Shown: positions 26,690 to 64,000, counted from the stretch's first letter. The stretch is DNA of 64,000 nucleotides from a virus (IMGVR_UViG_3300034283_001314), one strand, 5' to 3'. The notes: generated by a model from the letters alone, not told the origin. A program made the numbers and translations.

Positions 26690-27814
26690 ATGAAACTATT
26701 TTATTGTAATGGTTATGGTGATTTGGACTTTAGTAAGTTAGGATTTAACTTATACGATATTAAGTTAAATGATTATGATTACATAAAAGATATTGAATCT
26801 GGTGATGTATTATTTATTAAATTAGATGATATTGATATACTAAATCAATTAGTAAATCCTAAACTCAAAATTACTATATTTTTATTTATCAGTCATGAGT
26901 ATTGTAATGAACATCGTAGGATTGATATAATTAAAAACAAAAATGCTAATCATTCAATATGGTTCTTAACATCACATATAGATTTTTATTCTATTGATAA
27001 TGATATGAGTTTAGAAGCTAAGATGTTTCCATTCAAAGAAGCATTTTCAGATAAAGCATATATCAATTCAATTAATAGAAATAGAAAATACAATTTTTTT
27101 AATCGTTCTATTAATCTACGCAGACTAAAGACATTTGAGATTCTAAAAAAGAAAAATATAGAATTATTAGATTGTTATTTTACATTTGGAAACATTATCA
27201 AACACAATACATTTGGTGATATAGATACAATTAAAGATTTTGTAGAATTTAGAGATAAAAAAAATAAATTGGGGATTGATGCAGATTTTATTTCAAAGTA
27301 TAAGAATGAATTTAAGTTATACGAAAATAGAGAACAGGTTGAATTAGGAATTATACAGGCATCACATTCAAACGATATGTATGATACTATAAATGAACAA
27401 TCATTAGATTCATATGTATCAATGATAATTGAAAGTAGTGGTGATATGGATGATGATTATAGATTGACGGAAAAAACATTAAGAGCTTGGTTATGTAAAA
27501 ACATTTTCTTAACTTTACAATGTAAAGGATTTACCAAATTACTTAAACAAAATGGAATAGAAACATTTGAAGATGTATTTGGTTTAGATGAAAATTGGGA
27601 TGATTGTGAGGAATTAGAAAGAATAAATAAATTCATATCAGCTTTAGAATATATAAATGGATTATCAATAGCTAAAATAGCAAGAATATACAATAAAAAA
27701 GATATAGAAGATAGAATAGATAAAAACTATAATTTTATTATGAATAGTTTTAATGATGATACAATATTAGCTGAGTTAAAAAAGAAAATTGGTTATGAAA
27801 ATAATGTTCATTAG
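26690..27814 (+). CDS. putative glycosyltransferase, fucosyltransferase-like (GT10-type motif)
   Basis: 'MIIESSGD...YRLTEKTLRAWLCKNIFL' matches the motif. It is a close paralog of 47082-48227. Confidence 0.45.
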   Translation: MKLFYCNGYGDLDFSKLGFNLYDIKLNDYDYIKDIESGDVLFIKLDDIDILNQLVNPKLKITIFLFISHEYCNEHRRIDIIKNKNANHSIWFLTSHIDFYSIDNDMSLEAKMFPFKEAFSDKAYINSINRNRKYNFFNRSINLRRLKTFEILKKKNIELLDCYFTFGNIIKHNTFGDIDTIKDFVEFRDKKNKLGIDADFISKYKNEFKLYENREQVELGIIQASHSNDMYDTINEQSLDSYVSMIIESSGDMDDDYRLTEKTLRAWLCKNIFLTLQCKGFTKLLKQNGIETFEDVFGLDENWDDCEELERINKFISALEYINGLSIAKIARIYNKKDIEDRIDKNYNFIMNSFNDDTILAELKKKIGYENNVH

Positions 27815-28499
27815 TGACACACATGGTAGTCACGAGAAAATTGATAAATTATATGGTCAATTACCATATGTAGACATTATGATTCATAGTGGGGATTGTA
27901 GTAGATATGGTGAGTTTGCAGAAACCGATTTGTTTATGGATTGGTATTCAAAACAAAACGCTAAACATAAAGTATTGATAGCGGGTAATCATGATTTTGT
28001 ATTTCAAAACAAAGAAAGAACAAAACAATTATTAGAATTAAACCCATCAGTTACTTATTTAGAAGATGAGTATATTAATATTGATGGAATTGGTATATAT
28101 GGTTCTCCATGGTCACCTATCTATGGTATGTGGGCATTTATGAAACATAGAAACAATGATATGGATGAAGTGTGGAGGAAAGTTCCAACGGATGGTAGTA
28201 TTGATATTTTAGCAACACATACACCTAGATATGGTAGATTGGATATTAGTGTAAGAGGTAATTATAATGTAGGGTGTGAGATGTTAGCAAATAGAATCAA
28301 CGATATACACCCTAAGGTCCACGTATTTGGACACATACATGAATGTGGTGGAATGATTAAGGAAGAAACCGAAGTACCGGTAAAAGGTATGGTAAGTTTG
28401 AATGCATCCCTATTAGATATTAGATACGAATTAGCTAATCCAATATGGATATGGGACACTGAAACAAATGATTGGAGTTCAATAGAAATAAAAGAATAA
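27795..28499 (+). CDS. calcineurin-like metallophosphoesterase
   Basis: 'SDTHG', 'GDCS', 'GNHDF' and 'GHIHE' match MPP motifs. The ATG at 27795 is used because the track start at 27789 is TTG. Confidence 0.65.
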   Translation: MKIMFISDTHGSHEKIDKLYGQLPYVDIMIHSGDCSRYGEFAETDLFMDWYSKQNAKHKVLIAGNHDFVFQNKERTKQLLELNPSVTYLEDEYINIDGIGIYGSPWSPIYGMWAFMKHRNNDMDEVWRKVPTDGSIDILATHTPRYGRLDISVRGNYNVGCEMLANRINDIHPKVHVFGHIHECGGMIKEETEVPVKGMVSLNASLLDIRYELANPIWIWDTETNDWSSIEIKE

Positions 28500-28641
28500 G
28501 ATATGATAATGAGTTATGTGATAGGAATCGGTTGCAGCTTTATACTGGCTGCAATCGTTTCATTTTTTTGGGTAAGAGGTATTGATAATATGAAAGAAAA
28601 TCATCCTGATTATAAGGGTGAAGATTTTTTAAATTGGAGTG

Positions 28642-29307
28642 ATGATGAAAAATAAACTTTGGGTATTTGGATGTTCGTTATCAACTGGATTTAGAGGTGC
28701 AATAATGCCGTATGATGAAAAAGATACATGGGCAGGTAAATTGGCAAATAAATTAGGGTTAGAATTAGTTAATCAAGCACACGCCGGACAATGTAATTGG
28801 GTATCTATATTACAATTTATAGATAGAAGGGATGAAATCAAAAAAGGTGATATTGTGGTATTTGAATTTACTTTCTTTGATAGATTTAACATATATCCAA
28901 CAAGAGCACAATGGGGTGATTTAGAACATTTTTTTATTAAACATCAACAATCTTTAGTTGATGCAAATAAAGAATTGAGAGATTTAAATTTTAAATGGTT
29001 TGGTAAACAAGTACATCAATGGTGTAATGATACTGAAATCCCAATTTACCTATGGTCAGTTGAAGGACAGACTCATATTGATTTTAAACGATACTTTGAA
29101 AAATATAGATTTATACCTGCTCCTAACTATACAATAGAATCACCAAACTTTTCATTTTATTATAAATGGCAAGATTTACATCCTGAACAATGGTGTTTAG
29201 AAGATGATAGACATTTTGGTGAATTAGGACATGAGAGAATGGCAAATCATTTATTTGATTGTATTAAAAATGATATACAATATACTTATAAGAAACCTGT
29301 TGTATGA
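28642..29307 (+). CDS. SGNH/GDSL-family hydrolase
   Basis: Block I 'FGCSLS'. C-terminal 'DDRHFGELGHERMA' fits a DxxH block V. The ATG at 28642 is used because the track start is GTG. Confidence 0.5.
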   Translation: MMKNKLWVFGCSLSTGFRGAIMPYDEKDTWAGKLANKLGLELVNQAHAGQCNWVSILQFIDRRDEIKKGDIVVFEFTFFDRFNIYPTRAQWGDLEHFFIKHQQSLVDANKELRDLNFKWFGKQVHQWCNDTEIPIYLWSVEGQTHIDFKRYFEKYRFIPAPNYTIESPNFSFYYKWQDLHPEQWCLEDDRHFGELGHERMANHLFDCIKNDIQYTYKKPVV

Positions 29308-30035
29308 AAGTTTTAGTTATAGGAGATAGTTGTACGGATGTATTTGTATATGGCTATTGTAAACGATTATGTCCCGAAGGACCTATACCAATATTTGAAC
29401 CGAGTAGAACAATTACAAATATGGGGATGGCGGGTAATGTAGTTGCTAATCTTAAATCATTGGGTGCAGAGAAAGTTGAATTGGTTACTAACAAAGAACA
29501 AATAACAAAGACAAGATATGTTGAGGAAAAGGCAAATCATCTAATTATTAGAATTGATAGTAATGATAAGGTTAGTAATTCATTTGATATTAAAAGAGTT
29601 CCATTTGGTGATTATGATGCAGTAATTGTAAGTGATTACGATAAGGGATATTTAACATATGATGATTTAGAAAAAATATCAGAATCACATCCACTTACTT
29701 TTATTGATACCAAAAAACCAATAAACGATAAAATGAAAGGATACTCATTCATTAAGATAAATGAGTGGGAATGGGAACAATGTAAAGATGCAAATTACGA
29801 AGATTGGAATGATAAATTAATAGTTACAATGAGTGAAAGAGGTGCAATGTATAATGGTATAACGTATCCTGTAAACAATGATATTGAAGTAAGAGATTTA
29901 AGTGGTGCAGGTGATACATTTATGGCAAGTTTAGTAATTAGTTATTTAAAAACAACAAGTATAGAACGTAGTATTCAGTTTGCAAATGATTGTGCAACAA
30001 AAGTAGTTCAAAAAAGAGGAGTAGTTACACTATGA
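29304..30035 (+). CDS. PfkB-family carbohydrate kinase (HldE/RfaE domain-I-like)
   Basis: 'MKVLVIGD...PEGPIPI' resembles the HldE N-terminus. 'LSGAGDTF' is the ribokinase-family signature. Confidence 0.55.
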   Translation: MKVLVIGDSCTDVFVYGYCKRLCPEGPIPIFEPSRTITNMGMAGNVVANLKSLGAEKVELVTNKEQITKTRYVEEKANHLIIRIDSNDKVSNSFDIKRVPFGDYDAVIVSDYDKGYLTYDDLEKISESHPLTFIDTKKPINDKMKGYSFIKINEWEWEQCKDANYEDWNDKLIVTMSERGAMYNGITYPVNNDIEVRDLSGAGDTFMASLVISYLKTTSIERSIQFANDCATKVVQKRGVVTL

Positions 30036-32279: not shown

Positions 32280-32471
32280 ATGGAAAAACAATACGCAAAA
32301 CAAATAATAGAATGGGCAGAAACAGCAAAAGAAACATTAACCCTTCGTAAAGAAATCATAATAGATGAAACTATAACTAATGAAAAATTAGGTGAGATAG
32401 TTCGTATGATGTATAACGCAAAAGTAAGAGCAGAAAACGATTCAATTGAAAGGTGTAAACAATTTATATAA
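32280..32471 (+). CDS. hypothetical protein
   Basis: ATG ORF. Confidence 0.45.
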   Translation: MEKQYAKQIIEWAETAKETLTLRKEIIIDETITNEKLGEIVRMMYNAKVRAENDSIERCKQFI

Positions 32472-33304
32472 TGAATAAACATAACATAGAAATAGTATAT
32501 AGTAATGGATGTTCACATAGTGCGGCCGGTGGATTAGAATTAGTTAGAACAATAGATGATAAAAAAACACTAATAACTGATGTTTATAAAGAAAAATATA
32601 ATGTAAGTTGGAAAACACAAGAAGATGCAACTTATATAGCACATTTAGCAACTTTATTAGGTGGAATTGAATATGTAGCAGATGCAGCAAGTGGTGGTGG
32701 TAGTGGTAGAGTAATTAGATTGGCATATGATTTTGTAAAAAGAAATTGGGATAAAAAAGATAAGTTATTTTTAGTTTTAGAGTTTCCATGTTTCTTCCAA
32801 CGAATGGATGTATTTTCAGTTAAATTAGATAGTTGGATGGTAGTAAATCAATCATTCAGTAATTCAGGCAGAAGAAATCATTTATACGCAACTAGAAAAT
32901 ACTTTTTAGATGAATTTAGTAGTGATACACAAAAAATAGATGGTGATAAAGAACTTACTACATATTTAGATAACTTTACTAGAATTGATGTTGAAGAACA
33001 AAAATTGATAAGAGAAATTGAAACATTTTTATCTTTTTTAAAATTCAATAATATTAAACACATATGGTTTGAAGGTGATAAAAGTATTCAAACCAAAATA
33101 AATCCTGATCTTTTAAAAGATGAATTGAGAATTTATGATGAACTTGGTTATCATAATGATTTCCATGGTTGGATAAGAAAACACAACCTAACTATAAAAG
33201 ATGAATTAGAAGGATTGAGTACCGATTTACATCCTGGTTATTTCGGACACAAAAAATTCGCAGATATACTATATGAACATATTAATAAAAAATATAATAT
33301 GTAA
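32471..33304 (+). CDS. SGNH/GDSL-family hydrolase
   Basis: 'IVYSNGCSHSAAGG' (block I) and 'STDLHPGYFGHKKFA' (DxHP...GH block V). Confidence 0.5.
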   Translation: MNKHNIEIVYSNGCSHSAAGGLELVRTIDDKKTLITDVYKEKYNVSWKTQEDATYIAHLATLLGGIEYVADAASGGGSGRVIRLAYDFVKRNWDKKDKLFLVLEFPCFFQRMDVFSVKLDSWMVVNQSFSNSGRRNHLYATRKYFLDEFSSDTQKIDGDKELTTYLDNFTRIDVEEQKLIREIETFLSFLKFNNIKHIWFEGDKSIQTKINPDLLKDELRIYDELGYHNDFHGWIRKHNLTIKDELEGLSTDLHPGYFGHKKFADILYEHINKKYNM

Positions 33305-44778: not shown

Positions 44779-45456
44779 ATGGAAAATAAACAAACACTAT
44801 GGATATTTGGAGATTCTTTTTCTACTCCATTTAATGATAACACATTAGGTACTTGGGATGGAGATTATTGTAAATGGAAAGGATATGTTCCTAAATACTT
44901 TGGTGATATTATAGCAAAAGAATTAGAAGTAAATATACAACACTTTGGATATGGTGGCTCGGATAACGATACTATATTTGAAAGTATAATAAAACAAGCT
45001 CCTAAAATTAATAAAGGAGATTTAGTTATCATTGGTTGGTCCTCCATAGGTAGATTTAGATTAGTAAATAGGGAAAATAAATTCCAAACCGTTATACCTA
45101 GTTTTATTGATAAGTCATTGACCTGGTTTGATACCATTTCTAAATCTACAATAGAAGAGATATTAGTAAATAGAGATCATTATTTGTATAAAAAAGAATT
45201 ATATACAAAACTAGAGTTTTTAAATTTTTTATTTAATGATATGAAGTTAATACAATGGACTCCATTTAATTATGATGGAACTAAGATATTAGGATTTAAA
45301 GATATAAATACTATAATGATAGAAACTAATGGAGAATTAAAGGATGGACACTATTCCGAAATTGGACATATAGAGGTTTCTAAAAAGTTTATCACTATGT
45401 TTAATGATGATAAATTGAGAAATGATTCTAATAGATTATATATGCACTTAATCTAA
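44779..45456 (+). CDS. SGNH/GDSL-family hydrolase
   Basis: 'LWIFGDSFSTPF' (GDS block I) and 'DGHYSEIGHIEV' (block V). Confidence 0.55.
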   Translation: MENKQTLWIFGDSFSTPFNDNTLGTWDGDYCKWKGYVPKYFGDIIAKELEVNIQHFGYGGSDNDTIFESIIKQAPKINKGDLVIIGWSSIGRFRLVNRENKFQTVIPSFIDKSLTWFDTISKSTIEEILVNRDHYLYKKELYTKLEFLNFLFNDMKLIQWTPFNYDGTKILGFKDINTIMIETNGELKDGHYSEIGHIEVSKKFITMFNDDKLRNDSNRLYMHLI

Positions 45457-49827: not shown

Positions 49828-50112
49828 ATGAATAAAATAAGAGAAATAATAGGTGCATGGGTAATATCATTTAATCCTTCGCCTGAACAAAAAGAATTAG
49901 CAGAAAAACGATATGAGATATGTTTAGGATGTGAACATTATGGAAAAAAGAGACGAATTACACAAGATGAATATTGTAAACAATGTTTATGTTCTATTCA
50001 AAAAAAAGTATTTACAGAAAAAACAAAAGAATCATGTCCATTAAATAAATGGTCTGACATAGATAGTACATATATAGACACTATAAATAAAAAATCAAAA
50101 TCAATAATTTAG
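49828..50112 (+). CDS. six-Cys small protein (paralog of 35851-36111)
   Basis: 'CLGCEH', 'CKQCLC' and a C-terminal 'CPLNKW'. Confidence 0.45.
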   Translation: MNKIREIIGAWVISFNPSPEQKELAEKRYEICLGCEHYGKKRRITQDEYCKQCLCSIQKKVFTEKTKESCPLNKWSDIDSTYIDTINKKSKSII

Positions 50113-51833: not shown

Positions 51834-52658
51834 ATGAAACTATTTACCTTTGGTGATAGTTGGACGGAAGGTGTGGGTGGAAATCTAACCGAAGAATATG
51901 TTACGGATATACCAGAAGAAAGAACAATAATACGACAAAAATATTGTTGGCCAAAACACTTATCAGAGTTATTGAAGTGTGAAGTGCAAAATTATGGAGT
52001 GGGTGCTTTTTCAAATAATACAATATTTAATTCAATCTGTCACCAATTAAAAAATGAAATCATCACTAAAGATGATTTTGTTGTTATTATGTGGAGTTCA
52101 TCTTTGAGAGACAATTTACCATTTTTCCCAAACGAAGATTCTTTTCATATCTGGGGGGAGCGATATAAAAGTAAACAACATCTAATTAAATATATTTTTG
52201 ATGGTATTACTAGTAATAATATAAACTATAATAGAGCAGAAAAAGATTTTAGAGAATATTATATAACTAATTTGTTTAGTGATTCCTACTATAATATTAT
52301 AAATCAAAACTATATATTACATTTACAATTTATATTTAAACAAATGGGAATACAATATCTTTTTTGTGATGCATTTGATAATATGATTGGTAAAACTGTA
52401 ATTAGTGAAATTGATAATAGTAATTTAATTGATAATAGTAGATATTGGGGATTCAAAGAAAAAACATTTGCAGACTTTTTGATTGATTTAAAAAGGAGAG
52501 ATGTTTGGGAAGATAATAATTATTGGAGTCAATCGACATCTGGTAAACACCCAAGTAATAATGGATATCAGTTAATTGCGGAAGAATTATATAAATTTAT
52601 ATTAAATTCAAATTTACTGAAAAACGTTATGTGTAAAGATAAAAATTATTTAATATGA
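51834..52658 (+). CDS. SGNH/GDSL-family hydrolase
   Basis: 'LFTFGDSWTEGVGG' (GDSxxxG block I) and 'GKHPSNNGYQLIA' (block V). Confidence 0.55.
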   Translation: MKLFTFGDSWTEGVGGNLTEEYVTDIPEERTIIRQKYCWPKHLSELLKCEVQNYGVGAFSNNTIFNSICHQLKNEIITKDDFVVIMWSSSLRDNLPFFPNEDSFHIWGERYKSKQHLIKYIFDGITSNNINYNRAEKDFREYYITNLFSDSYYNIINQNYILHLQFIFKQMGIQYLFCDAFDNMIGKTVISEIDNSNLIDNSRYWGFKEKTFADFLIDLKRRDVWEDNNYWSQSTSGKHPSNNGYQLIAEELYKFILNSNLLKNVMCKDKNYLI

Positions 52659-53203
52659 TGGAATTTTCTATAAACAATTTTTTTTCAAAAGAAGAATGTA
52701 AATCTATTATAGAAATTGCCGATGCCATTGGTGTTAAATTTTCATATAATCCAAATGAAGTATGGGATTGTAAACGAATTTATGATGACAAATTCAAAGA
52801 AAATATTTTAAATAAACTAAAAACGAATTACCAAAATAATAATTTTAAATTGTGGTTTGATTTGAATGAATTTAAAATAAATGATGTTAATATTAGTTTG
52901 ACCAAATATTATGATAATAGATGGTTAGATTTACATTTAGATAGGATGTCTCAATTAACAACAGTTATAGTCCTTTCCGATGAATTTGATGACGGTAGAT
53001 TTGTATTATCTCCCAATAATGGTGATATTAATACAGCCGAAAAATATAATTTGCAAATTGGAGATGGTATTTCGTTTGATGGTAGTAAAGTATATCATGG
53101 TGTATTACCTGTTCATACAGGTATAAGATATGCTTTAAATATATGGATGACAAATACCGATTTTGAATATAAACCTTTAAAAATCAATAAAAGCATAATA
53201 TAA
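52655..53203 (+). CDS. 2OG-Fe(II) oxygenase (P4H-like small form)
   Basis: 'LHLDRM' (HxD), 'KVYHGV' (distal His) and 'GIRYALNIW' (Arg). Confidence 0.55.
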   Translation: MMEFSINNFFSKEECKSIIEIADAIGVKFSYNPNEVWDCKRIYDDKFKENILNKLKTNYQNNNFKLWFDLNEFKINDVNISLTKYYDNRWLDLHLDRMSQLTTVIVLSDEFDDGRFVLSPNNGDINTAEKYNLQIGDGISFDGSKVYHGVLPVHTGIRYALNIWMTNTDFEYKPLKINKSII

Positions 53204-53212: not shown

Positions 53213-53836
53213 ATGAAACCAAACATTTATATATGTGGAGATAGTTTTGTAGATTGGGATTTACCCGAAGTACATTGGACAGATTATTTATCTAATCATT
53301 ATAATGTTATTAAATTAGGAAAGTTTGGTTCGGATAATCATTCTATAATTTATCAAACGGGAAATATTCCAAACTATATAGATGGTGATAGACTTATAAT
53401 TGTATTTACGGCACCTGGTAGATTTCCAAGAAGATATTTTGGTGAACGTGATATAAATCATAATATAAAATATTTAAATTGGGAATGGTATAAAGATAAA
53501 TCTTTTGCAAAAAAACTATTAGATTTAAGAATATCAGAAACACAAAATTGGTTAGATGGAAATAGAGATAATGAAATATTATTTATTAAAAAATTAAAAT
53601 ATTTTTATGAAAATTATGAACCAATATTTGTAACATGGAATGATGATTTTTATGAAAAAACAAAAGAGTTTGTAGAATTAATAAAAGTAACTTCTATATC
53701 AGATGAAGGTGGTGACCCGATAGATTGGCATCCTGGACGGGTTGGGTGTTATGATTTTTATCTTAAACTACATAAATTTCTAAACATAGAAGAATCAATT
53801 ATAGAATTTGAAAATAAAAAAAATAAACTTATATGA
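53213..53836 (+). CDS. SGNH/GDSL-family hydrolase
   Basis: 'IYICGDSFVDW' (GDS) and 'IDWHPGRVG' (DxHP). Confidence 0.5.
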   Translation: MKPNIYICGDSFVDWDLPEVHWTDYLSNHYNVIKLGKFGSDNHSIIYQTGNIPNYIDGDRLIIVFTAPGRFPRRYFGERDINHNIKYLNWEWYKDKSFAKKLLDLRISETQNWLDGNRDNEILFIKKLKYFYENYEPIFVTWNDDFYEKTKEFVELIKVTSISDEGGDPIDWHPGRVGCYDFYLKLHKFLNIEESIIEFENKKNKLI

Positions 53837-54351
53837 AATTATCAATAGAAGATTTGATTTTTTTAAAATCCGAATTAAGTGTTACTAGAATAATGAATGA
53901 GGAAGACTTGGCGTATATAAAAGCATCTCACCCTCAATTATATTTTGCAACCCATCTTAAAAAAGATGAAGGGGTCTCTCTTTTTCCAAATAATAGTTGG
54001 GTTTATACTTTGGAAAATAAAAATTTAAATGAATTTATTTGTAATAAATTTGAAGAACCTATTGATAATTTATACATAATACATAGATTAATATATGGTG
54101 AAAATGGTTATGCTAAAAAACATAAAGATAGATTTACAACACATAAAACAATTAGTATTTTATTATCATCCGATTTTACCGGTGGGGAAATGTATATAAA
54201 TGATGAAGATGTGTCATTAACAAATGAAGGAGATTATGTTGTATTTAATGGTGGGAATGAATCACATGAAGTAAAAAAGATAATTAGTGGGGAGCGAGAT
54301 GTATTGATAATATGGTTTTCCAAAAAGAAAGCAAAATTTAGTATTATATGA
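53833..54351 (+). CDS. 2OG-Fe(II) oxygenase (P4H-like small form)
   Basis: 'KHKDRF' (HxD), 'ESHEV' and 'GERDVLIIWF'. Confidence 0.55.
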   Translation: MKLSIEDLIFLKSELSVTRIMNEEDLAYIKASHPQLYFATHLKKDEGVSLFPNNSWVYTLENKNLNEFICNKFEEPIDNLYIIHRLIYGENGYAKKHKDRFTTHKTISILLSSDFTGGEMYINDEDVSLTNEGDYVVFNGGNESHEVKKIISGERDVLIIWFSKKKAKFSII

Positions 54352-55010
54352 GAATTGCAATAGTGTGTAATGGTAGGAGTGGTTCCACATCAACGTTTTA
54401 TTATTTAAAGTGTTGTTTAGCTAGAGAACGTAAAAAATATGATTCTTTCTTTGAACCATTTAATTTTATAAATCCAGATAGAGAGGATACATACAACCAA
54501 CTAAAAACAATTGATGAAATAATAAATAAAAAAAACATATTAATAAAAACATTTATAGATAGTGATAATTACCCATATGAATCTTTTAAAAGTGTAGAAG
54601 ATTATTGGGAATGGTTTTATTCATTTTTTGATAAAATAATAGTATTAGAAAGAAAAAATAAAAGATTACAAGCCGAATCACTGGCCTATCATATTAGAAT
54701 ATCTAAAAATAAAACACCTTTACAAACTTGGCATACACAAAAATATTATGAATTAACAGAGGATGATGAGGATGCTGTAATAAAACTAACACATCATTTA
54801 GAATCAGAATCATTAGTGTTAAAATTTATTTCAGATAAAGGGTATCCACTATTTTATTATGAGGATATATTTGTTAATAAAGATATTGAAACGATAAAAC
54901 GTTTAAACGAATATTGTGAAATAGCATATAGTCAAATATGTATTGATGAGTGGATAAATTCTCCATATAAAAAAGTAAGAATAGAAGAAAAGTCAACTAA
55001 ATTAATATAA
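54348..55010 (+). CDS. sulfotransferase-like P-loop protein
   Basis: N-terminal 'IAIVCNGRSGSTSTFYYL' resembles the RSGST PAPS-binding loop of Sulfotransfer_3/NodH-type enzymes. Confidence 0.35.
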   Translation: MRIAIVCNGRSGSTSTFYYLKCCLARERKKYDSFFEPFNFINPDREDTYNQLKTIDEIINKKNILIKTFIDSDNYPYESFKSVEDYWEWFYSFFDKIIVLERKNKRLQAESLAYHIRISKNKTPLQTWHTQKYYELTEDDEDAVIKLTHHLESESLVLKFISDKGYPLFYYEDIFVNKDIETIKRLNEYCEIAYSQICIDEWINSPYKKVRIEEKSTKLI

Positions 55011-56074
55011 TGATAGATTTAAAACAATATGTTTGTACGGTTCCGTTTGAGGCATTAGAAATACATGAAAATAAAAATTTTATGTGTTGTGCAAGTTGGT
55101 TAAAAAAAGAATTACCCAATGGGGTTCCCATAAAAGAATTATGGAATTCAGATGAAGCAATTGAAATACGAAAATCTGTAATGGATGGTTCTTATCGTTA
55201 TTGTGATAAAACACAATGTCCATTTTTAGCTAGATTAATATCATTAAATAAAAGTATTTCCGGGCCAGTTATCCACATAGATAATTTGAGTGATGAAATG
55301 AAAACAAATTACGATAGACAAACTGGTATAATTCCAAATGGACCTAAAATAATTCAAATGTCATTCGATAGAACTTGTAATTATAAATGTCCATCATGTA
55401 GGGTTAATATGATTGTTGCAAATAGTGATAAAATAAAAAGTGTAAATCTTACAATAGAAGAAATAGAAAATGCATACTCCGATTCAATTGAAACAATTTA
55501 TTGTTCTGGAACAGCTGATCCATTTGCATCTGTTTCATATAGAAATTTTTTAAGAAATTTTAATCCAAAAAAATATCCAAATTTAAAATCAATCCATCTA
55601 CATACAAACGCCAGTTTGTGGAATGAAGAAATGTGGGATAGTATGCCAAATATACATAAATATGTTCACAGTTGTGAAATTAGTATTGATGCTGGTACTC
55701 AATATACTTACGAAAATGTAACAAGGTTGGGAGGCAATTGGGATAATCTGATCTCAAATTTAAATTTTATTTCAACTATAAAATCTTTACATAGTGTTAA
55801 ATGTTCTTTTGTCGCCCAACAATCAAATTATAATGAAATGGAAACATTTTTAAATTTAATATATTCTATATTCAAAAATAAAACTAAAGTCTTTTTTGGT
55901 AGGATAACAAATTGGGGAACATTTAGTGATGGTCAATTTAAATTAATTGATGTTGGTAATGATACACATCCAGAACATAAATTATTTTTAAAACAATTTA
56001 AAAAAGTTGCAACCAATCCATATGTTTTTCATAATATGTATGAATTAATTGATATGAAAAAAACATTACTATAA
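55010..56074 (+). CDS. radical SAM enzyme
   Basis: 'SFDRTCNYKCPSCR' matches the CxxxCxxC motif. The N-terminal region has additional Cys residues. Confidence 0.6.
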   Translation: MIDLKQYVCTVPFEALEIHENKNFMCCASWLKKELPNGVPIKELWNSDEAIEIRKSVMDGSYRYCDKTQCPFLARLISLNKSISGPVIHIDNLSDEMKTNYDRQTGIIPNGPKIIQMSFDRTCNYKCPSCRVNMIVANSDKIKSVNLTIEEIENAYSDSIETIYCSGTADPFASVSYRNFLRNFNPKKYPNLKSIHLHTNASLWNEEMWDSMPNIHKYVHSCEISIDAGTQYTYENVTRLGGNWDNLISNLNFISTIKSLHSVKCSFVAQQSNYNEMETFLNLIYSIFKNKTKVFFGRITNWGTFSDGQFKLIDVGNDTHPEHKLFLKQFKKVATNPYVFHNMYELIDMKKTLL

Positions 56075-56571
56075 TGGTGATTACACAAAATGTTTTATTT
56101 ACAAAATTAGAATGTGATTCTATAATTTGGCAAAATACAGATGTAACAAATTGGAATAAAAATGATAGAAAATATAAATCAATTTTATTAGAGTATTCAG
56201 ATGATACTGAATGGATCTTTTTAAAATTGAAAAATTTTGTTGAAGAATCAACAAATATAAAAATTACTAATTTAAAAAAGGTAATACATTTTCATAAATT
56301 TAATGAGATGGATTGGTTTGATAAACATAATGATGATAAAGATAATAGAATTTATGCAGTTGGTGTTTTGTTAAATAATGACTTTAAAGGTGGTGATTTT
56401 AAATTATATAATCCAGATGAAATAATATTAGATAAAGTTATTGGTAACACTTATACATTTGATGTAAGAATTGAACACGAAATAACACCTATACTTAAAG
56501 GAGAGCGATATTCATTACTTTGGTTTTTACAAAAAGAACATATTAAATTTAATACAAATAAATTATTATAA
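56074..56571 (+). CDS. 2OG-Fe(II) oxygenase (P4H-like small form)
   Basis: 'KHNDD' (HxD), 'RIEHEI' and 'GERYSLLWF'. Confidence 0.55.
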   Translation: MVITQNVLFTKLECDSIIWQNTDVTNWNKNDRKYKSILLEYSDDTEWIFLKLKNFVEESTNIKITNLKKVIHFHKFNEMDWFDKHNDDKDNRIYAVGVLLNNDFKGGDFKLYNPDEIILDKVIGNTYTFDVRIEHEITPILKGERYSLLWFLQKEHIKFNTNKLL

Positions 56572-59475: not shown

Positions 59476-60378
59476 ATGGCAGAATACTCACAAATATTAC
59501 CTCTTAGAACCGATATAAAGGTAGTAGACCAATTTGGATTCTTACCCCTATCAATTAATAGACCTACCAAAGAATCGAAGCTAAAGTGGCACGATGCATA
59601 CCTTAATGATGGTTTAGATGAACAACGTCGTAGTGACACATCCGAATATTTACCTGGTTATACATTCTCCGAATTCCACGCTGGATTGGCAGAACAAGTA
59701 TATAGGTTTTGGAGTATGCAAGGTAGTAAGATAGTTGACCCATTTGCGGGTAGAGTAACAAGAGGATTTGTTGCAACTAAATTAGGTAGAGATTATACTG
59801 GATTCGAAATTTCACCAAAGACATGGGAAAGAACACATAAACATTTTGATGCACATAATGTTCATCCACACATAATTAATAGTGATGGAACTTTAATGGA
59901 GGAAATTTCAGATAAAACCGCAGATTTAGTTTTTACTTGTCCACCTTACTTTAATTTAGAAAAATACGAATCAGTTCCTGGTCAATTAAGTGATGAGAAT
60001 AGATATGAATCATTTATGAGTAAGATTGATGTTTGTATTTCAAATTGTTATAGAGTTCTTAAAAGTGGAGCATTTGCATGTTGGGTTGTAGGTGATTTAA
60101 GGACTGGTGGTGAGTTTCAAAACTTTCATGGTGATGTAATCAATTCGTTTAAGAAGCATGGCTTTAATCAGCACGATATAGTTATACTAGAAAATATCTC
60201 ACCATTTGCAGCATTACAAATTGGAAAAACCGCAGCTAAACGATACACATCAAAAGTACATGAATACCTTTTAGTATTCCGAAAACCAGGTGATTATGAA
60301 ATACCAAAATATTGTTCACCGGATGTAATGGAGCAAGAAAACAAATTAGCAGAATTCTTTAATTATGATAGAAAATAA
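59476..60378 (+). CDS. SAM-dependent methyltransferase (amino-MTase-like) with atypical motifs
   Basis: Motif I-like 'VDPFAGRVTRG' and motif IV-like 'VFTCPPYF' (CPPY). Confidence 0.5.
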   Translation: MAEYSQILPLRTDIKVVDQFGFLPLSINRPTKESKLKWHDAYLNDGLDEQRRSDTSEYLPGYTFSEFHAGLAEQVYRFWSMQGSKIVDPFAGRVTRGFVATKLGRDYTGFEISPKTWERTHKHFDAHNVHPHIINSDGTLMEEISDKTADLVFTCPPYFNLEKYESVPGQLSDENRYESFMSKIDVCISNCYRVLKSGAFACWVVGDLRTGGEFQNFHGDVINSFKKHGFNQHDIVILENISPFAALQIGKTAAKRYTSKVHEYLLVFRKPGDYEIPKYCSPDVMEQENKLAEFFNYDRK

Positions 60379-61255
60379 ATTTCATACAATTCATTTTACA
60401 GGATGTTCTTTTACCGAAGGTGGTGGATTTGAAGATGGAAAACAACAATTAAAATCCGAATATAAAAAGAAATATGGATTTTTATACAAAAATGAAAAGG
60501 ATGTTTCATATCCTTCACTTTTACAATCAAAACTTAATTTAAAGATTATAAACGATGCTAAGAGTGGTAGTGGTATAGAAAGAACTATTCGTAAAATATG
60601 GGAATATATAAGAAAGCATAAATTAGAGCATGTTAAAAAAACTTTATTTATATTAGAAATGGCAGAAGCTGTTTCTAGATTAGAAGTGTTCTCAAATAAA
60701 TACAATAAATATTTAGTAGCAAATGTAGTATACGATTATAAAACAGGTAAAATCACCGATACACAAACTACATTAAATTGGATATACGGACCACAAATGG
60801 ATGAAGAATATAGAGATAATACACGAGAAGTTATTAGAGAATATTCAACATTGTTTGTAAATCCATATGAATACGATAAGAAAATACAAAATGAAATATT
60901 AGGATTATTTAGTTTTTTTAAGATGCATGATATACATTTCTATTATAGTGGAAATGTTAGTTTCGTTGATAATTTTGCAAAAAGAATATACAATGATATT
61001 GAGGAAACTAATCGATTAAACTTAATAATAAATGGAAAACCATATTTTAATTTTTATGAATTAGCACATTCAAATTTAATAAGAATATCGGATGAAGTTG
61101 GATTAGATATATCTACTGATGGACATCCTGGTGTTCAGGCACATCAAATGTGGGCAGAAGGAATTTACAATTTTTTACAAAATAAGTATTTAGATGATAC
61201 TTATGAATTAGATTATAGACAAAACAAAATTATTTCAACAAAAAATATAATATGA
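60365..61255 (+). CDS. SGNH/GDSL-family hydrolase
   Basis: 'IHFTGCSFTEGGG' (block I) and 'STDGHPGVQAHQMWA' (DGHP block V). Confidence 0.55.
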   Translation: MIENKFHTIHFTGCSFTEGGGFEDGKQQLKSEYKKKYGFLYKNEKDVSYPSLLQSKLNLKIINDAKSGSGIERTIRKIWEYIRKHKLEHVKKTLFILEMAEAVSRLEVFSNKYNKYLVANVVYDYKTGKITDTQTTLNWIYGPQMDEEYRDNTREVIREYSTLFVNPYEYDKKIQNEILGLFSFFKMHDIHFYYSGNVSFVDNFAKRIYNDIEETNRLNLIINGKPYFNFYELAHSNLIRISDEVGLDISTDGHPGVQAHQMWAEGIYNFLQNKYLDDTYELDYRQNKIISTKNII

Positions 61256-62542: not shown

Positions 62543-63445
62543 ATGAATTTAGGATATGCTTGTATTAATCTTTCTTTAGGTAAGAAAGTTACAACAAACC
62601 GAACAATGATTAAACGAACCTTTATTGATAAGGGATTAGATTATGTGTCGGATTTGGTATTGCAAAATGTTACAGACTTAGAAAAGATTATAGATTGGAA
62701 TGAGCAGAATAATATTAAGATGTATCGTATGAGTTCCGATATGATGCCTTGGGCTACTGAATATCAATTTAGTGAATTAAAGGATTGGAACGAAATATCT
62801 ATTATCCTTAAAAGATGTGGTGAGAAGGCAACAAAGTATGGACAAAGATTATCATTTCATCCAGGTCCGTTTAATGTATTAGTATCACCAAAAGAAAGTG
62901 TTGTACTTAATACTATTAACGATTTAGAAGTACATGGTAGACTTATGGATGCTATGGGATTATCACAAACACCCTACAATAAGATTAATATTCATTGTAA
63001 TGGTGTATATGGGGATAAACAAAGTGCAATGGATAGATTTATAACTAATTTCGGAAGACTCTCTAAATCGGTGCAAAATAGGCTTACAATAGAGAATGAT
63101 GATAAGGCAAGTATGTATTCCGTAAAAGATTTAATGTATATTCATCAAAAGATAGGTATTCCTATTGTATTTGATTATCATCACCACAAATTTTGTACAG
63201 GTGATTTAACCGAACAACAAGCATTAGAGTTAGCAATGAGTACGTGGCCTGACGATATAACACCAGCAGTTCATTATTCCGAATCTGCAGTTGGTAAAAA
63301 ACCACAAGCACATTCCGATTATATTTCTGAAACAATTAATACTTATGGTAATACCGTAGATATAATGGTAGAAGCTAAGAAAAAAGATTTAACAATTTTA
63401 AAATATAAACAAGAAAATTATGGCATACTCAGAAAAAGTGCTTGA
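62543..63445 (+). CDS. UV-damage endonuclease (UvdE/Uve1 family)
   Basis: The N-terminus 'MNLGYACINLSL' and the roughly 300-aa length fit UvdE TIM-barrel endonucleases. Confidence 0.55.
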   Translation: MNLGYACINLSLGKKVTTNRTMIKRTFIDKGLDYVSDLVLQNVTDLEKIIDWNEQNNIKMYRMSSDMMPWATEYQFSELKDWNEISIILKRCGEKATKYGQRLSFHPGPFNVLVSPKESVVLNTINDLEVHGRLMDAMGLSQTPYNKINIHCNGVYGDKQSAMDRFITNFGRLSKSVQNRLTIENDDKASMYSVKDLMYIHQKIGIPIVFDYHHHKFCTGDLTEQQALELAMSTWPDDITPAVHYSESAVGKKPQAHSDYISETINTYGNTVDIMVEAKKKDLTILKYKQENYGILRKSA

Positions 63446-63821
63446 TCATTACGCAAATCCTAAAAATGTAGGAACTTTAGATAAATCAAAGCAAAATGTA
63501 GGAACTGGTTTAGTTGGTGCACCAGAATGTGGTGATGTAATGAGATTGCAATTAGAAATTAATGATGGAATTATTACTGATGCAAAATTTAAAACGTTTG
63601 GTTGTGGAAGTGCAATTGCAGCTTCATCTTTAGCAACTGAGTGGTTAAAGGGTAAAACTTTGGATAAAGCAGTAGAATTAGATAATATGGATTTAGTAGA
63701 GGAATTATCACTACCACCGGTTAAAATACATTGTTCAGTATTAGCACAAGATGCAGTTAGAGATGCTATTAATGATTATAGAAAGAAAAACAATTTAGAA
63801 CCAATTAAATTTGAAGATTAA
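63420..63821 (+). CDS. iscU: Fe-S cluster assembly scaffold IscU/NifU-like
   Basis: 'LDHYANPKNVG...GAPECGDVMRLQL...FKTFGCGSAIASSS...HCSVLA' carries the three conserved Cys residues and matches the IscU core. Confidence 0.75.
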   Translation: MAYSEKVLDHYANPKNVGTLDKSKQNVGTGLVGAPECGDVMRLQLEINDGIITDAKFKTFGCGSAIAASSLATEWLKGKTLDKAVELDNMDLVEELSLPPVKIHCSVLAQDAVRDAINDYRKKNNLEPIKFED

Positions 63822-63830
63822 TGAAAGTAT

Positions 63831-64000
63831 TAATTACAGGTGTAGCGGGGCTATTAGGTAGTAGACTTGCAGATTATATAATTGAAAATATACCAAATGT
63901 AGAAGTAGTTGGGATAGATGATTTATCTGGTGGTTACAAAGAAAATGTGAATTCAAAAGTTACGTTTTGGGAAATGAACTTAGTAGAACATCCAATTGAA
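63831..64000 (+). CDS. NAD-dependent nucleotide-sugar epimerase/dehydratase (3' end truncated by window edge)
   Basis: 'MKVLITGVAGLLGSRLADYII...VVGIDDLSGG' is a Rossmann GxxGxxG N-terminus typical of RfbB/GalE-type enzymes. Confidence 0.55.

What the first reader, a model, noticed from the sequence alone, without database searches (positions are those of the whole stretch)
26690..64000. Very large phage-encoded glycan or small-molecule tailoring repertoire of unknown target
Within about 37 kb the phage encodes three fucosyltransferase-like glycosyltransferases, with two more at 11.6-14 kb. It also encodes six SGNH/GDSL hydrolases, three P4H-like 2OG-Fe(II) oxygenases and a PfkB/HldE-like sugar kinase. 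A metallophosphoesterase, a sulfotransferase-like protein, a radical SAM enzyme, two methyltransferases and a nucleotide-sugar epimerase/dehydratase at the window edge complete the set. This paralog-rich investment is closer to giant-virus capsid glycosylation machinery than to ordinary phage accessory genes. Plausible targets are virion proteins, phage DNA (base glycosylation or hypermodification) or the host envelope. None of these is established here. No collagen-like GXY substrate is present in the window.
Basis: partly seen in the sequence, partly recalled or inferred. Interest (0 to 1): 0.85.

Follow-up and report, generated by a model that had tools for sequence, protein, structure and literature searches.

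The report
Tagged tailoring enzymes, self-cleaving peptide precursor
In an uncultured giant phage, the supposed sugar-decorating gene set is a mix of scattered copies of an unclassified glycosyltransferase and a conserved, virus-only operon in which unrelated modifying enzymes all end in the same short tag and surround a protein that looks built to cut off a small, fast-evolving cysteine-rich peptide.

Summary
Most of the listed enzymes are present, but they are not one glycan machine. Four GT-B-fold paralogs are real members of a Pfam-unclassified family (26690, 47082, 11663, 12910). The fifth (43602) is unsupported. Confirmed or probable: six SGNH-like proteins (four robust, two weak), three 2OG oxygenases, an HldE-domain-I-like kinase, a metallophosphoesterase, a twitch radical-SAM enzyme and an epimerase. 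The sulfotransferase rests on motifs only. The two methyltransferases are DNA N6/N4 methylases.

Nine consecutive genes (49828-56571) form an operon. Eight of them, from unrelated folds, end in K-x-[LI]-[LI]-COOH. The ninth (50159-51685) is an ATP-grasp-like ligase fused to a Hint autoprocessing domain. That domain ends in an invariant His-Asn and is followed by a hypervariable six-cysteine peptide of 28 residues.

The module recurs in 302 IMG/VR contigs. It was not found in GenBank phages or GTDB genomes. I infer a Hint-released, heavily tailored peptide whose enzymes are marked by a common tag. Relatives, but not this window, pair a protein O-heptosyltransferase with Gly-Ser/Thr-Ser collagen-like fibres, so virion glycosylation remains plausible for the glycosyltransferase set.

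The parts
11663..12913 (+). GT-B-fold glycosyltransferase-family paralog (outside the flagged span)
   Evidence: BLASTP to 47082 and 26690. Family HMM E 4e-55.
12910..14016 (+). GT-B-family paralog in tandem with 11663
   Evidence: hhalign to A1 93.8%. Family HMM E 6e-30.
26690..27814 (+). GT-B-family paralog. First gene of a tight four-gene group: GT, phosphoesterase, SGNH, kinase.
   Evidence: 33% identical to 47082. HMM 4e-135. The exact protein occurs on many metagenome contigs.
27789..28499 (+). Metallophosphoesterase
   Evidence: Pfam Metallophos 5.2e-17.
28639..29307 (+). SGNH-like hydrolase or acyltransferase, ends KPVV
   Evidence: Pfam GDSL 5.8e-4. hhalign to the 44779 group 97.8%.
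29304..30035 (+). HldE-domain-I-like (heptose-7-phosphate kinase-like) PfkB kinase, 243 aa
   Evidence: Pfam PfkB 3e-14. NCBIfam rfaE_dom_I 8.9e-35, 120 bits, below the cut-off of 345.
32471..33304 (+). SGNH-like paralog of 60365, without the C-terminal tag
   Evidence: BLASTP 3.7e-18 to 60365. Motif alignment. Weak hhalign link, 54%.
43602..44777 (+). Unassigned 391-aa protein. The third 'GT' of the finding, not supported.
   Evidence: No Pfam, PHROGs or NCBIfam hit. hhalign to the GT family finds nothing. Not among the family-HMM hits listed down to about E=1.
44779..45456 (+). SGNH-like protein carrying the tag (ends MHLI)
   Evidence: hhalign 98% to the 51834 group. Orthologs sit inside the tagged block in relatives.
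47082..48227 (+). GT-B-family paralog, the one that was modelled
49828..50112 (+). Small Cys-rich (CxxC...CxC...C) protein with a 19-residue extension carrying the tag (KSII). First gene of the operon.
   Evidence: Residues 1-75 align to the untagged paralog 35851-36111 (2e-7). Syntenic in relatives.
50159..51043 (+). ATP-grasp-like acid-amine ligase domain of the central protein (residues 1-295)
51044..51598 (+). Hint (intein/Hedgehog/BIL) autoprocessing domain (residues about 296-480), ending in invariant H479-N480
51599..51685 (+). 28-residue hypervariable six-Cys peptide ACSAFCYGGCFPAYYCGGCPNCEQGFKL plus stop. Proposed released product and substrate.
   Evidence: Cys framework kept while the loops vary. 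Non-synonymous divergence (pN) is 5-8 times that of the rest of the protein. pLDDT below 50.
51834..52658 (+). SGNH/DUF6071 protein, tagged (NYLI)
   Evidence: Pfam DUF6071 3.2e-7, GDSL 1.7e-4. Tag.
52655..53203 (+). 2OG-Fe(II) oxygenase paralog, tagged (KSII)
   Evidence: BLASTP to 53833. An L018 2OG oxygenase 25% identical to it (L018 1642-2190) hits 2OG-FeII_Oxy_3 at 5e-14.
53213..53836 (+). SGNH-like protein, tagged (NKLI)
   Evidence: hhalign 92% to the 44779 group.
53833..54351 (+). 2OG-Fe(II) oxygenase (P4H-type family), tagged (FSII)
   Evidence: Pfam 2OG-FeII_Oxy_3 1.6e-6, 29.4 bits against a cut-off of 27.
54348..55010 (+). Sulfotransferase-like P-loop protein (motif level only), tagged (TKLI)
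   Evidence: Invariant R-x-G-S and R-x-N-x6-S motifs. No profile or PDB match. 117 of 120 homologs end in two aliphatic residues.
55010..56074 (+). Radical SAM enzyme with an N-terminal Cys cluster (twitch type), tagged (KTLL)
   Evidence: Pfam Radical_SAM 9.8e-5. NCBIfam N_Twi_rSAM 3.6e-14, below cut-off. 69-96% identical in relatives.
56074..56571 (+). 2OG-Fe(II) oxygenase paralog, tagged (NKLL). Last gene of the operon.
   Evidence: BLASTP 3.9e-5 to 53833. H-x-D...H motif read from the sequence.
60365..61255 (+). SGNH-like protein with a long linker and the tag (KNII)
63821..64000 (+). N-terminus of an NAD-dependent sugar epimerase/dehydratase, cut by the window end
   Evidence: Pfam Epimerase 4.2e-6. 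The full 330-aa gene in L023 is GalE-like at 1.3e-30, below cut-offs.

Best explanation
The flagged span is a mosaic accessory region of an uncultured phage lineage whose contigs reach about 240-330 kb. It holds two separate enzyme sets.

(A) Genes 49828-56571 are a conserved operon found only on viral contigs.
- Its centre is a 508-aa protein. It consists of an ATP-grasp-like acid-amine ligase domain, then a Hint autoprocessing domain, then a 28-residue peptide with six cysteines and hypervariable loops.
- The Hint domain has no conserved N-terminal nucleophile but keeps an invariant terminal His-Asn.
- I infer that Asn cyclisation at N480 releases the peptide.
- I also infer that the surrounding enzymes tailor the peptide before or after release. 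These are 2OG oxygenases, SGNH acyl-hydrolases or transferases, a sulfotransferase-like protein, a twitch radical-SAM enzyme and, in relatives, a tryptophan halogenase.
- These enzymes are marked for a common partner or place by a shared C-terminal tag, (K)KK[STKN][LI][LI]-COOH.
- The ATP-grasp domain may act on the peptide's free carboxy terminus, by ligation or cyclisation.

(B) Four scattered GT-B paralogs, the heptose-kinase-like gene and the epimerase are a separate glycosylation set. Their acceptor is not in the window. By analogy with relatives, it is most likely a virion fibre protein.

Shown: the folds, the motifs, the tag, the synteny and the distribution. Inferred: the cleavage, the peptide as substrate and the role of the tag.
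For: The tag:
- 8 of 9 operon genes end in [LI][LI], against 3 of 112 other ORFs (Fisher p 1.6e-9).
- Tail codons vary. The tail is present on genes followed by gaps of 46-97 nt. Other overlapping gene pairs in the window lack it.
- Across 78 IMG/VR loci the tag is on ST-like 72/72, a 263-aa family 73/73, halogenase 45/46, radical SAM 25/26, 2OG 219/232, small Cys protein 61/70 and SGNH 62/79. It is on 158/865 other ORFs, and on none of 77 central proteins, 8 GT4 proteins or 8 fibres. These are unrelated folds, so the tag was acquired independently.
- Tagged copies are untagged paralogs plus an extension.
- The halogenase and 2OG genes of Pelagibacter phage HTVC008M lack the tag.

The central protein:
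- AlphaFold pLDDT 85.6.
- H479, N480 and the Cys framework are invariant.
- The peptide's non-synonymous divergence (pN) is 5-8 times that of the rest of the protein.
- Some homologs add a second self-removing module right after the peptide. This is a Peptidase_S74-like domain or a Hint domain recognised by Pfam. That arrangement would free a precise C-terminus.
- Trp in the peptide tracks halogenase presence (31/8/0/5, p 0.0012, not corrected for phylogeny).

Distribution and the GT set:
- The central gene sits in the middle of the tagged block in the loci whose gene order was inspected.
- 302 IMG/VR relatives. None in 50,697 GenBank phages. None found in GTDB species genomes.
- GT-B fold. 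The GT paralogs and the kinase are not linked to the operon in relatives.
Against: - No experiment exists. Cleavage at N480 is inferred from fold and invariant residues only.
- The Cys peptide could equally be a metal-binding knuckle that stays attached.
- The radical-SAM gene is present in only 12 of 27 fully flanked loci, so it is not a core enzyme.
- Peptides with Trp occur without a halogenase in 8 loci, and the association is confounded by clade structure.
- The last codon is enriched for ATA (77% of Ile codons against 45% genome-wide). Part of that reflects ATGA start/stop overlaps.
- No partner that reads the tag has been identified.
- The sulfotransferase assignment is motif-only.
- In a minority of relatives the block abuts glycosyltransferases and fibres, so a structural-protein target is not excluded.
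Confidence: 0.45

Rival explanations
1. All these enzymes form one glycan-building and glycan-tailoring machinery that decorates virion proteins, comparable to giant-virus capsid or fibril glycosylation.
For: - The window holds four GT-B paralogs, a heptose-kinase-like gene and an epimerase.
- In L018 the enzyme block is followed directly by a GT4-FkbM fusion, a protein O-heptosyltransferase (TIGR04414, above its cut-off) and a collagen-repeat fibre with a Peptidase_S74 domain.
- 47 of 80 viral loci with this heptosyltransferase have a Gly-[ST]-Ser collagen-like ORF just downstream.
Against: - GT4, fibre and heptosyltransferase neighbours occur in only 5, 4 and 2 of 27 fully flanked loci. The ATP-grasp/Hint/peptide protein is found in 77 of the 78 loci.
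- The GT proteins never carry the tag.
- The GT-B paralogs and the kinase are not linked to the operon or to heptosyltransferase loci in relatives.
- The collagen-like repeats contain about 1% Pro, so they are poor substrates for P4H-type oxygenases.
- The window has no Gly-X-Y protein.
Confidence: 0.2
2. The enzymes are independent auxiliary metabolic genes of the kind that cyano- and pelagimyoviruses accumulate (2OG oxygenases, halogenase). The shared tail is a turnover or expression signal, for example a ClpX-type basic-hydrophobic C-terminal degron (my recollection of the MuA tail) or a translational-coupling element. The central protein is an unrelated polymorphic-toxin-like effector that releases a small C-terminal toxin through its Hint domain.
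For: - Kyanoviridae phages carry several 2OG oxygenases next to a tryptophan halogenase (PMC3037559).
- Hint domains that release variable C-terminal modules are the hallmark of polymorphic toxins (PMC3482391).
- The tails are Lys-rich with a hydrophobic end.
- Some nucleotide bias exists at the last codon.
Against: - The tagged genes and the central gene are syntenic across relatives in which the central protein is down to about 30% identical. That argues for a functional unit.
- The tail persists on terminal genes followed by gaps. It is absent from other coupled genes.
- The enzymes of HTVC008M lack it.
- The central protein has no secretion or trafficking domain.
Confidence: 0.2
3. The central protein is a virion component, and the Cys-rich tip is a fast-evolving receptor-binding or metal-stabilised knob. 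The tagged enzymes modify that structural protein, and the tag directs them to the assembling particle.
For: - Some homologs end in a Peptidase_S74-type intramolecular chaperone, a domain typical of phage fibres and spikes.
- Hypervariability of a C-terminal tip is typical of receptor-binding proteins.
- Fibre genes follow the block in two sublineages.
Against: - The body of the protein is an enzyme-like ATP-grasp domain with invariant catalytic-type residues plus a Hint domain. It is not a fibre shaft.
- No structural-protein fold was found.
- BFVD matches cover only part of the query (TM-score normalised to the query at most 0.30); the matches that carry a name are mostly Hint-domain proteins.
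Confidence: 0.1
4. The glycosyltransferases and kinase hypermodify phage DNA by base glycosylation, alongside the two DNA methylases.
For: - Two N6/N4 DNA methylases, a ligase, UvdE and a nuclease are in the window.
Against: - Generic GT-B enzymes score higher than the DNA glucosyltransferases.
- No hydroxymethylase-like or other base-modifying gene was detected among the window ORFs scanned.
- Paralog expansion with divergent N-terminal (acceptor) halves fits several acceptors better than a single base.
Confidence: 0.05

Closest known systems
RiPP clusters with Cys-rich cores or enzyme-fused precursors: ranthipeptides/SCIFF (six Cys plus a radical-SAM maturase), graspetides (ATP-grasp), borosins (core fused to its own enzyme). 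From my own knowledge.
   Same: A genetically encoded short peptide with a conserved Cys framework and variable loops. It sits beside many tailoring enzymes, including a radical SAM and an ATP-grasp-fold domain. The peptide is fused to an enzyme domain.
   Different: No leader peptide or RRE-type recognition domain was seen. Release would be by a Hint domain, which I know of in no RiPP class. The tailoring enzymes carry a common C-terminal tag. The system is virus-only. The radical SAM is present in under half of the loci.
Polymorphic toxin systems with pre-toxin HINT domains (PMC3482391)
   Same: A conserved N-terminal body, then a Hint domain, then a highly variable C-terminal module that the Hint domain is thought to release.
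   Different: The C-terminal module is only about 25-30 residues with six Cys. There is no secretion or trafficking domain and no recognisable immunity gene. An ATP-grasp-like domain lies upstream. About ten tagged tailoring enzymes are co-clustered.
Shared C-terminal targeting tags: encapsulin cargo-loading peptides, peroxisomal PTS1 (-SKL), cellulosome dockerins. From my own knowledge.
   Same: Unrelated enzymes carry the same short C-terminal signal, attached by a linker. That implies a common receptor or compartment.
   Different: The motif, (K)KK[STKN][LI][LI]-COOH, matches none of these. No encapsulin shell, Pex5-like or cohesin-like partner was identified. The context is a phage operon.
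GT10 alpha-1,3-fucosyltransferases and GT4 retaining glycosyltransferases
   Different: No member passes Pfam Glyco_transf_10 or any other GT model. The best result is one distant relative at E 0.0037. GT4-type structures score higher than GT10. Donor and acceptor are unknown.
2OG oxygenase and tryptophan halogenase islands of T4-like cyano- and pelagiphages (HTVC008M; PMC3037559)
   Same: Several P4H-type or phytanoyl-type 2OG oxygenases are clustered with a flavin halogenase in large aquatic phages.
   Different: Those proteins have no C-terminal tag. They are not organised around an ATP-grasp/Hint/peptide gene, and the central protein has no tblastn match in GenBank phages.
Bacterial autotransporter heptosyltransferases (TibC/Aah; PMC4358343) and glycosylated collagen-like fibres (BclA, Mimivirus; from my own knowledge)
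   Same: Relatives encode a TIGR04414-class O-heptosyltransferase next to Ser/Thr-rich collagen-like fibres. The window encodes a heptose-7-phosphate-kinase-like enzyme.
   Different: Neither the heptosyltransferase nor a collagen-like gene is in this window. The kinase scores below the HldE cut-off and lacks the adenylyltransferase domain.

Membership tests
GT10 fucosyltransferase (Pfam Glyco_transf_10 / CAZy GT10) | Sequence match to the family profile above the curated threshold | tested here: not met
   There was no hit for any of the 36 family members even at E up to 10. One distant relative scores E 0.0037, 17.4 bits, against a cut-off of 23.9.
GT10 fucosyltransferase (Pfam Glyco_transf_10 / CAZy GT10) | GT-B fold | tested here: met
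GT10 fucosyltransferase (Pfam Glyco_transf_10 / CAZy GT10) | GDP-fucose donor and alpha-1,3/4 linkage | not testable with these tools
   This needs an enzyme assay.
SGNH/GDSL hydrolase superfamily | Block I Ser (GDS), block II Gly, block III Asn and block V His in order | tested here: met
   The alignment of 18 sequences has invariant G7, S9 and H239 and a G-G-x-x-N segment. The profile hits SGNH structures (6nkd at E 0.0038 and six other weak SGNH hits).
SGNH/GDSL hydrolase superfamily | Profile match above the curated threshold | tested here: inconclusive
   Pfam GDSL scores 22.3 and 20.5 bits against a cut-off of 23.6. DUF6071 scores 30.7 against 27 for 51834 only. The 60365/32471 pair is linked at only 54% by hhalign.
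2OG-Fe(II) oxygenase (P4H-type, Pfam 2OG-FeII_Oxy_3) | Profile match above threshold and the H-x-D...H...R triad | tested here: met
   53833 scores 29.4 bits against a cut-off of 27. All three copies show HKD, HLD or HND, a distal His and an Arg (sequence). 2OG oxygenases of the L018 block, related to the window copies at 25-28% identity, score 5e-14 and 2e-12.
Sulfotransferase (Sulfotransfer_3 / Stf0-like) | Profile or structural match, together with the 5'-PSB and 3'-PB motifs | tested here: inconclusive
   The motifs are present and invariant (R10-x-G12-S13; R102-x-N104-x6-S111). There was no Pfam, NCBIfam or PDB match. 470 homologs were found; the 120 listed carry no Pfam annotation.
Radical SAM (twitch/SPASM-type maturase) | CxxxCxxC cluster and an auxiliary Cys cluster, with a family profile match | tested here: inconclusive
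   The CNYKCPSC motif and N-terminal cysteines are present. Pfam Radical_SAM scores 23 bits against 29.5. N_Twi_rSAM scores 52.7 bits against 170.
[quoted passage not shown] | Equivalog-level match to TIGR02198 | tested here: not met
   It is the best-scoring family (8.9e-35, 120 bits) but far below the cut-off of 345. The protein is about 70 residues shorter than the model.
Hint superfamily (intein / Hedgehog / BIL) | Hint fold | tested here: met
Hint superfamily (intein / Hedgehog / BIL) | Catalytic residues: N-terminal Cys/Ser nucleophile, terminal His-Asn, +1 nucleophile | tested here: inconclusive
   The terminal H479-N480 are invariant. A Cys follows within 1-3 residues. No conserved Cys, Ser or Thr lies at the expected N-terminus, where only Y302 and D305 are conserved. 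This fits C-terminal cleavage only, not splicing.
ATP-grasp / glutathionylspermidine-synthetase-like acid-amine ligases | Fold match and Mg/ATP-binding residues | tested here: inconclusive
RiPP biosynthetic gene cluster | A ribosomal precursor whose core peptide is shown to be modified by the clustered enzymes | not testable with these tools
   Only synteny, peptide hypervariability and a Trp-halogenase association are available.

The most novel reading that the evidence does not exclude
The C-terminal (K)KK[STKN][LI][LI]-COOH tail is an addressing code. It lets a phage gather a dozen unrelated tailoring enzymes on one receptor. That receptor could be the ATP-grasp/Hint body of the precursor itself, which resembles ligases that read protein C-termini, or a phage-built compartment. 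A tethered Cys-rich peptide would then be modified in assembly-line fashion. It would be released by Asn cyclisation, and possibly cyclised or ligated through its free carboxy terminus. This reverses the usual RiPP logic, in which enzymes recognise a leader peptide on the substrate. It would also be the first Hint-released, virus-encoded modified peptide.
Probability: 0.25. Interest if true: 0.92.

Novelty: new variant of a known kind. Interest (0 to 1): 0.8.

Why it matters
If the inference holds, large aquatic phages encode their own heavily modified, rapidly diversifying peptides. They would make them with two devices I could not find described:
- a Hint domain used as the release protease of a peptide precursor;
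- a common C-terminal tag shared by unrelated tailoring enzymes.

That would add a virus-only branch to peptide natural-product biosynthesis. It would give a testable function to the puzzling 2OG-oxygenase and halogenase islands of aquatic phages. It would also supply a portable recruitment tag and a self-cleaving precursor design for engineering.

Independently, the work defines a large Pfam-unclassified GT-B family (7,756 representatives at E up to 1e-3). In relatives, it also shows a strong pairing of protein O-heptosyltransferases with Gly-Ser/Thr-Ser collagen-like fibres, which points to heptosylated phage fibres.

Tried and rejected
- Near-identity DNA search of 43-63 kb against GenBank phages gave no match.
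- tblastn of a GT paralog, the radical SAM and the central protein against GenBank phages gave no match.
- PHROGs found nothing for ten key proteins.
- Pfam at E up to 10 over all 36 GT-family members found no GT model.
- PDB sequence searches with the GT protein, the GT profile and the sulfotransferase-like profile found nothing meaningful.
- A profile search for sulfotransferase-like relatives returned only unannotated in-family proteins, so the assignment stays at motif level.
- 43602 as a fifth GT was rejected. A search for its relatives in IMG/VR found none.
- The idea that the tail is only a by-product of start/stop overlap or translational coupling was rejected as a full explanation. 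The tail occurs on terminal genes and with varied codons, and it is absent from other coupled genes. The excess of ATA as last codon shows some nucleotide-level contribution.
- The radical SAM as the universal core enzyme was rejected, because it is present in 12 of 27 complete loci.
- The Trp-halogenase association is kept only as a hint, because eight counter-examples form one clade.
- The promoter and terminator scan of the operon was indistinguishable from shuffles.
- The afdb50 fold library was unavailable.
- A GTDB genome scan found no cellular copy (the first attempt failed for lack of a conserved stretch).
- The Peptidase_S74-like extension of P0239 had no PDB sequence match. It was confirmed instead by pairwise alignment to the Pfam-verified domain of the L018 fibre.

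Full report
**Setting**

The 64-kb window is about 30% GC. Every ORF of note is on the + strand and there are no tRNAs. It has no near-identical DNA in 50,697 GenBank phage records. A CobT/VWA-like 696-aa protein is about 36% identical to proteins of an uncultured 484-kb phage and of Microcystis phage Mel-JY01. Exact copies of window proteins occur on many metagenome contigs of up to 185-243 kb. Relatives occur on IMG/VR contigs of up to 333 kb. The source is therefore an uncultured large phage lineage. The cultured phages that shared any gene with it in these searches (Mel-JY01; T4-like cyano- and pelagiphages) do so only at about 27-37% protein identity.

**Checking the enzyme list**

Pfam and NCBIfam confirm these assignments:
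- metallophosphoesterase at 27789-28499;
- a PfkB kinase at 29304-30035, whose best family is HldE domain I (8.9e-35, below the curated cut-off);
- one 2OG-FeII_Oxy_3 oxygenase at 53833-54351;
- a radical-SAM enzyme at 55010-56074 (CxxxCxxC; N_Twi_rSAM 3.6e-14, below cut-off);
- an epimerase N-terminus at the window edge.

The two 'methyltransferases' are N6_N4_Mtase DNA methylases.

The other two oxygenases (52655, 56074) are paralogs of 53833 and keep the H-x-D...H...R residues.

Six proteins carry SGNH motifs in register. Four are linked by hhalign at 92-98%. The 60365/32471 pair is linked at only 54%. The joint profile finds SGNH esterases in the PDB (best E 0.0038).

The sulfotransferase-like protein (54348) has invariant R-x-G-S and R-x-N-x6-S motifs. 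It has no profile or structure match.

No collagen-like run of six or more Gly-X-Y triplets exists in any frame of the window. The span also contains Band_7, flavodoxin-like, GIY-YIG, HSP20, UvdE and IscU genes and about 40 small unassigned ORFs. It is therefore not a dedicated locus.

**The glycosyltransferase-like proteins**

A profile search finds 7,756 representatives at E up to 1e-3. Of ten distant representatives, only one gives a sub-threshold Glyco_transf_10 hit (E 0.0037). This is a large, unclassified GT-B family with a GT10-like E...TEK segment.

Family HMMs place 26690, 47082, 11663 and 12910 in it, but not 43602. In relatives these genes and the kinase are not linked to the operon described next.

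**An unexpected shared tail**

I listed the C-termini of all 121 non-nested ORFs. Every gene of the contiguous block 49828-56571 except one ends in two Leu/Ile residues preceded by Lys/Asn/Ser: KSII, NYLI, KSII, NKLI, FSII, TKLI, KTLL and NKLL. Only 3 of 112 other ORFs do so, and two of those are SGNH paralogs. Fisher's exact test gives p = 1.6e-9.

Several observations argue that this is a protein-level feature:
- The tail codons vary.
- The tail is present on genes followed by gaps of 46-97 nt.
- It is absent from other overlapping gene pairs in the window.
- The last codon is, however, enriched for ATA, so start/stop overlap contributes something.
- Tagged proteins look like untagged paralogs plus an extension. 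49828 residues 1-75 align end to end with 35851-36111, and a 19-residue extension carries the tag. The same holds for 60365 against 32471.

**The tail is conserved across the lineage**

Across 78 IMG/VR loci found with the central protein, the tag is carried as follows:

| Protein class | Tagged / total |
|---|---|
| Sulfotransferase-like | 72/72 |
| Unassigned 263-aa family | 73/73 |
| Tryptophan halogenase | 45/46 |
| Radical SAM | 25/26 |
| 2OG oxygenase | 219/232 |
| Small Cys protein | 61/70 |
| SGNH | 62/79 |
| Other ORFs | 158/865 |
| Central protein | 0/77 |
| GT4 protein | 0/8 |
| Fibre | 0/8 |

The consensus from 114 distinct tails is K(-7) K(-6) K(-5) K/N(-4) T/S/K/N(-3) L/I(-2) I/L(-1). 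These folds are unrelated, so the tail was acquired independently. The halogenase and 2OG genes of Pelagibacter phage HTVC008M lack it.

**The untagged gene at the centre**

50159-51685 (508 aa) has 127 homologs, nearly all without any Pfam domain. Its model is confident (pLDDT 85.6) except for the last 26 residues.
- Invariant residues include E22-x-N24, K186, R241, D244 and, at the end of the Hint domain, H479-N480.
- No conserved Cys, Ser or Thr lies at the expected Hint N-terminus. The domain therefore fits C-terminal cleavage by Asn cyclisation and not splicing. This step is an inference.

**The peptide after His-Asn**

After the His-Asn comes a peptide of 25-35 residues. It has a fixed six-Cys framework (sometimes eight Cys), aromatic- and Gly-rich loops that differ between relatives, and a basic end of the K or K-[LIV] type. 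Its non-synonymous divergence is 5-8 times that of the rest of the protein: pN is 0.09 against 0.012 and 0.28 against 0.052.

Some homologs append a second self-removing module immediately after the peptide. One type is a Peptidase_S74-like domain, which aligns to the Pfam-verified domain of a relative's fibre at E 1e-4. The other is a Hint domain recognised by Pfam. Both would free a defined C-terminus. This supports the short peptide, and not the large body, as the product.

BFVD holds only partial matches to the model (TM-score normalised to the query at most 0.30); those that carry a name are mostly Hint-domain proteins. GenBank phages hold no match, and none was found in one genome per GTDB species. 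IMG/VR holds 302 relatives.

**How the operon most likely works**

Shown:
- a syntenic block of tagged enzymes around the ATP-grasp/Hint/peptide gene, with a median of 11 tagged ORFs per locus (range 7-15);
- in 27 loci with both flanks complete: sulfotransferase-like in 27, 2OG in 26, small Cys protein in 25, the 263-aa family in 22, SGNH in 18, halogenase in 16 and radical SAM in 12.

Inferred:
- the enzymes tailor the Cys-rich peptide;
- the Hint domain releases it;
- the tag directs the enzymes to a common partner;
- the ATP-grasp domain may act on the peptide's carboxy terminus.

One hint supports the peptide as substrate. Peptides with Trp go with a halogenase in 31 loci and lack one in 8. 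Peptides without Trp never have one (0 against 5, p 0.0012). The test is not corrected for relatedness, and the eight exceptions form one clade.

The closest concepts are ranthipeptide- or borosin-like RiPP clusters and polymorphic toxins with pre-toxin Hint domains (PMC3482391). For the tag, the closest are encapsulin cargo peptides, PTS1 and dockerins. None of these shares the motif or the architecture.

In the 333-kb relative (L018) the tagged block is followed by three genes:
- a 908-aa GT4-FkbM fusion;
- a 705-aa protein that passes the equivalog model for autotransporter O-heptosyltransferases (TIGR04414, 283 bits against a cut-off of 200; family described in PMC4358343);
- a 1,035-aa fibre with 64 and 93 Gly-[ST]-Ser triplets and a Peptidase_S74 domain.

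This heptosyltransferase occurs on at least 82 viral contigs. In 47 of the 80 loci fetched, a Gly-[ST]-Ser collagen-like ORF lies just downstream. Its X/Y positions are 65% Ser, 20% Thr and 1% Pro.

Heptosylated collagen-like fibres are thus likely in the wider group, and the window's heptose-kinase-like gene fits that theme. However, neither the transferase nor a fibre is in the window. They neighbour the operon in only a minority of loci, and Pro-free repeats are poor substrates for P4H-type oxygenases.

**Verdict**

The GT-B paralogs are new members of a known fold class with an unknown acceptor. The operon is the notable part. It is a widespread module, so far seen only on viral contigs, whose two defining features I could not find in the libraries or the literature searched. 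Those features are a shared C-terminal tag on unrelated tailoring enzymes and a Hint-terminated ATP-grasp protein carrying a hypervariable Cys-rich peptide. Function remains inferred, so I file it as a new variant of peptide-maturation or polymorphic-toxin logic and give the more radical reading separately.

Noticed in passing
L103-L182 (IMG/VR loci); e.g. L103 8001-10115 and 11422-12258: Phage-encoded autotransporter-type protein O-heptosyltransferases occur on at least 82 viral contigs. In 47 of the 80 fetched loci they are followed by collagen-like ORFs made almost wholly of Gly-Thr-Ser and Gly-Ser-Ser triplets (up to 333 triplets; 1% Pro). This suggests heptosylated collagen-like fibres.
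   Followed up: partly
window 36828-39533 and 23818-24159: A tandem family of at least seven small paralogs (89-114 aa). All begin M-L-[ITV]-I-[QK]-N-x-x-K-[IL] and have no database match. A copy also occurs in relative L012 (14973-15281).
   Followed up: no
window 19007-19339 and 21244-21777: Two paralogs (BLASTP 7.5e-6) end in a W-S-C-S-C-P-A...C-K-H-I segment that looks like a SWIM-type zinc finger. This was read from the sequence only.
   Followed up: no
window 4235-7738: A 696-aa protein (36% identical over 91% of its length to a protein of a 484-kb uncultured phage; only a sub-threshold Pfam CobT_C/VWA hit, E 0.0058) is followed by a MoxR/CbbQ-type AAA+ ATPase. The pair resembles a CobT/CobS-like pair.
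   Followed up: partly
L055 and L082 (IMG/VR names GVMAG-M-3300009164-63 and GVMAG-M-3300007547-5): Two contigs carrying the central ATP-grasp/Hint gene are filed in IMG/VR under giant-virus MAG names. Pieces of this phage lineage may have been binned with giant viruses.
   Followed up: no
L015 12357-20880: Directly after the tagged block there is a 1,707-aa fibre-like protein. It is followed by three tandem 368-377-aa paralogs that all end in S-G-H-C-G-W-R.
   Followed up: no
window 56669-57289: A 206-aa protein with a lipoprotein-type signal (…LILSSC) sits immediately after the tagged operon. It carries no tag and has no database match.
   Followed up: no
window 62543-63821, and downstream in L022 and L023: UvdE overlaps a NifU/IscU scaffold gene. 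In relatives these are followed by the epimerase, an IscA-like Fe-S protein and a peptide deformylase. This is a cluster of host-like auxiliary genes unrelated to glycan tailoring.
   Followed up: partly
window 58255-58962: A 235-aa protein with an HHDLGK segment (weak HD-domain hit, E 0.14). It is conserved at 63-68% identity just downstream of the operon in many relatives (24 of the central-gene loci).
   Followed up: partly
window 41389-41706: A GIY-YIG homing-endonuclease-like ORF lies among the small unassigned genes.
   Followed up: no
window 51599-51682 compared with L004 and L007: Synonymous divergence in the Cys-peptide segment is also 2-4 times that of the rest of the gene (pS 0.17 against 0.046, and 0.43 against 0.21). 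This could mean recombination or targeted diversification of this segment in addition to selection.
   Followed up: no
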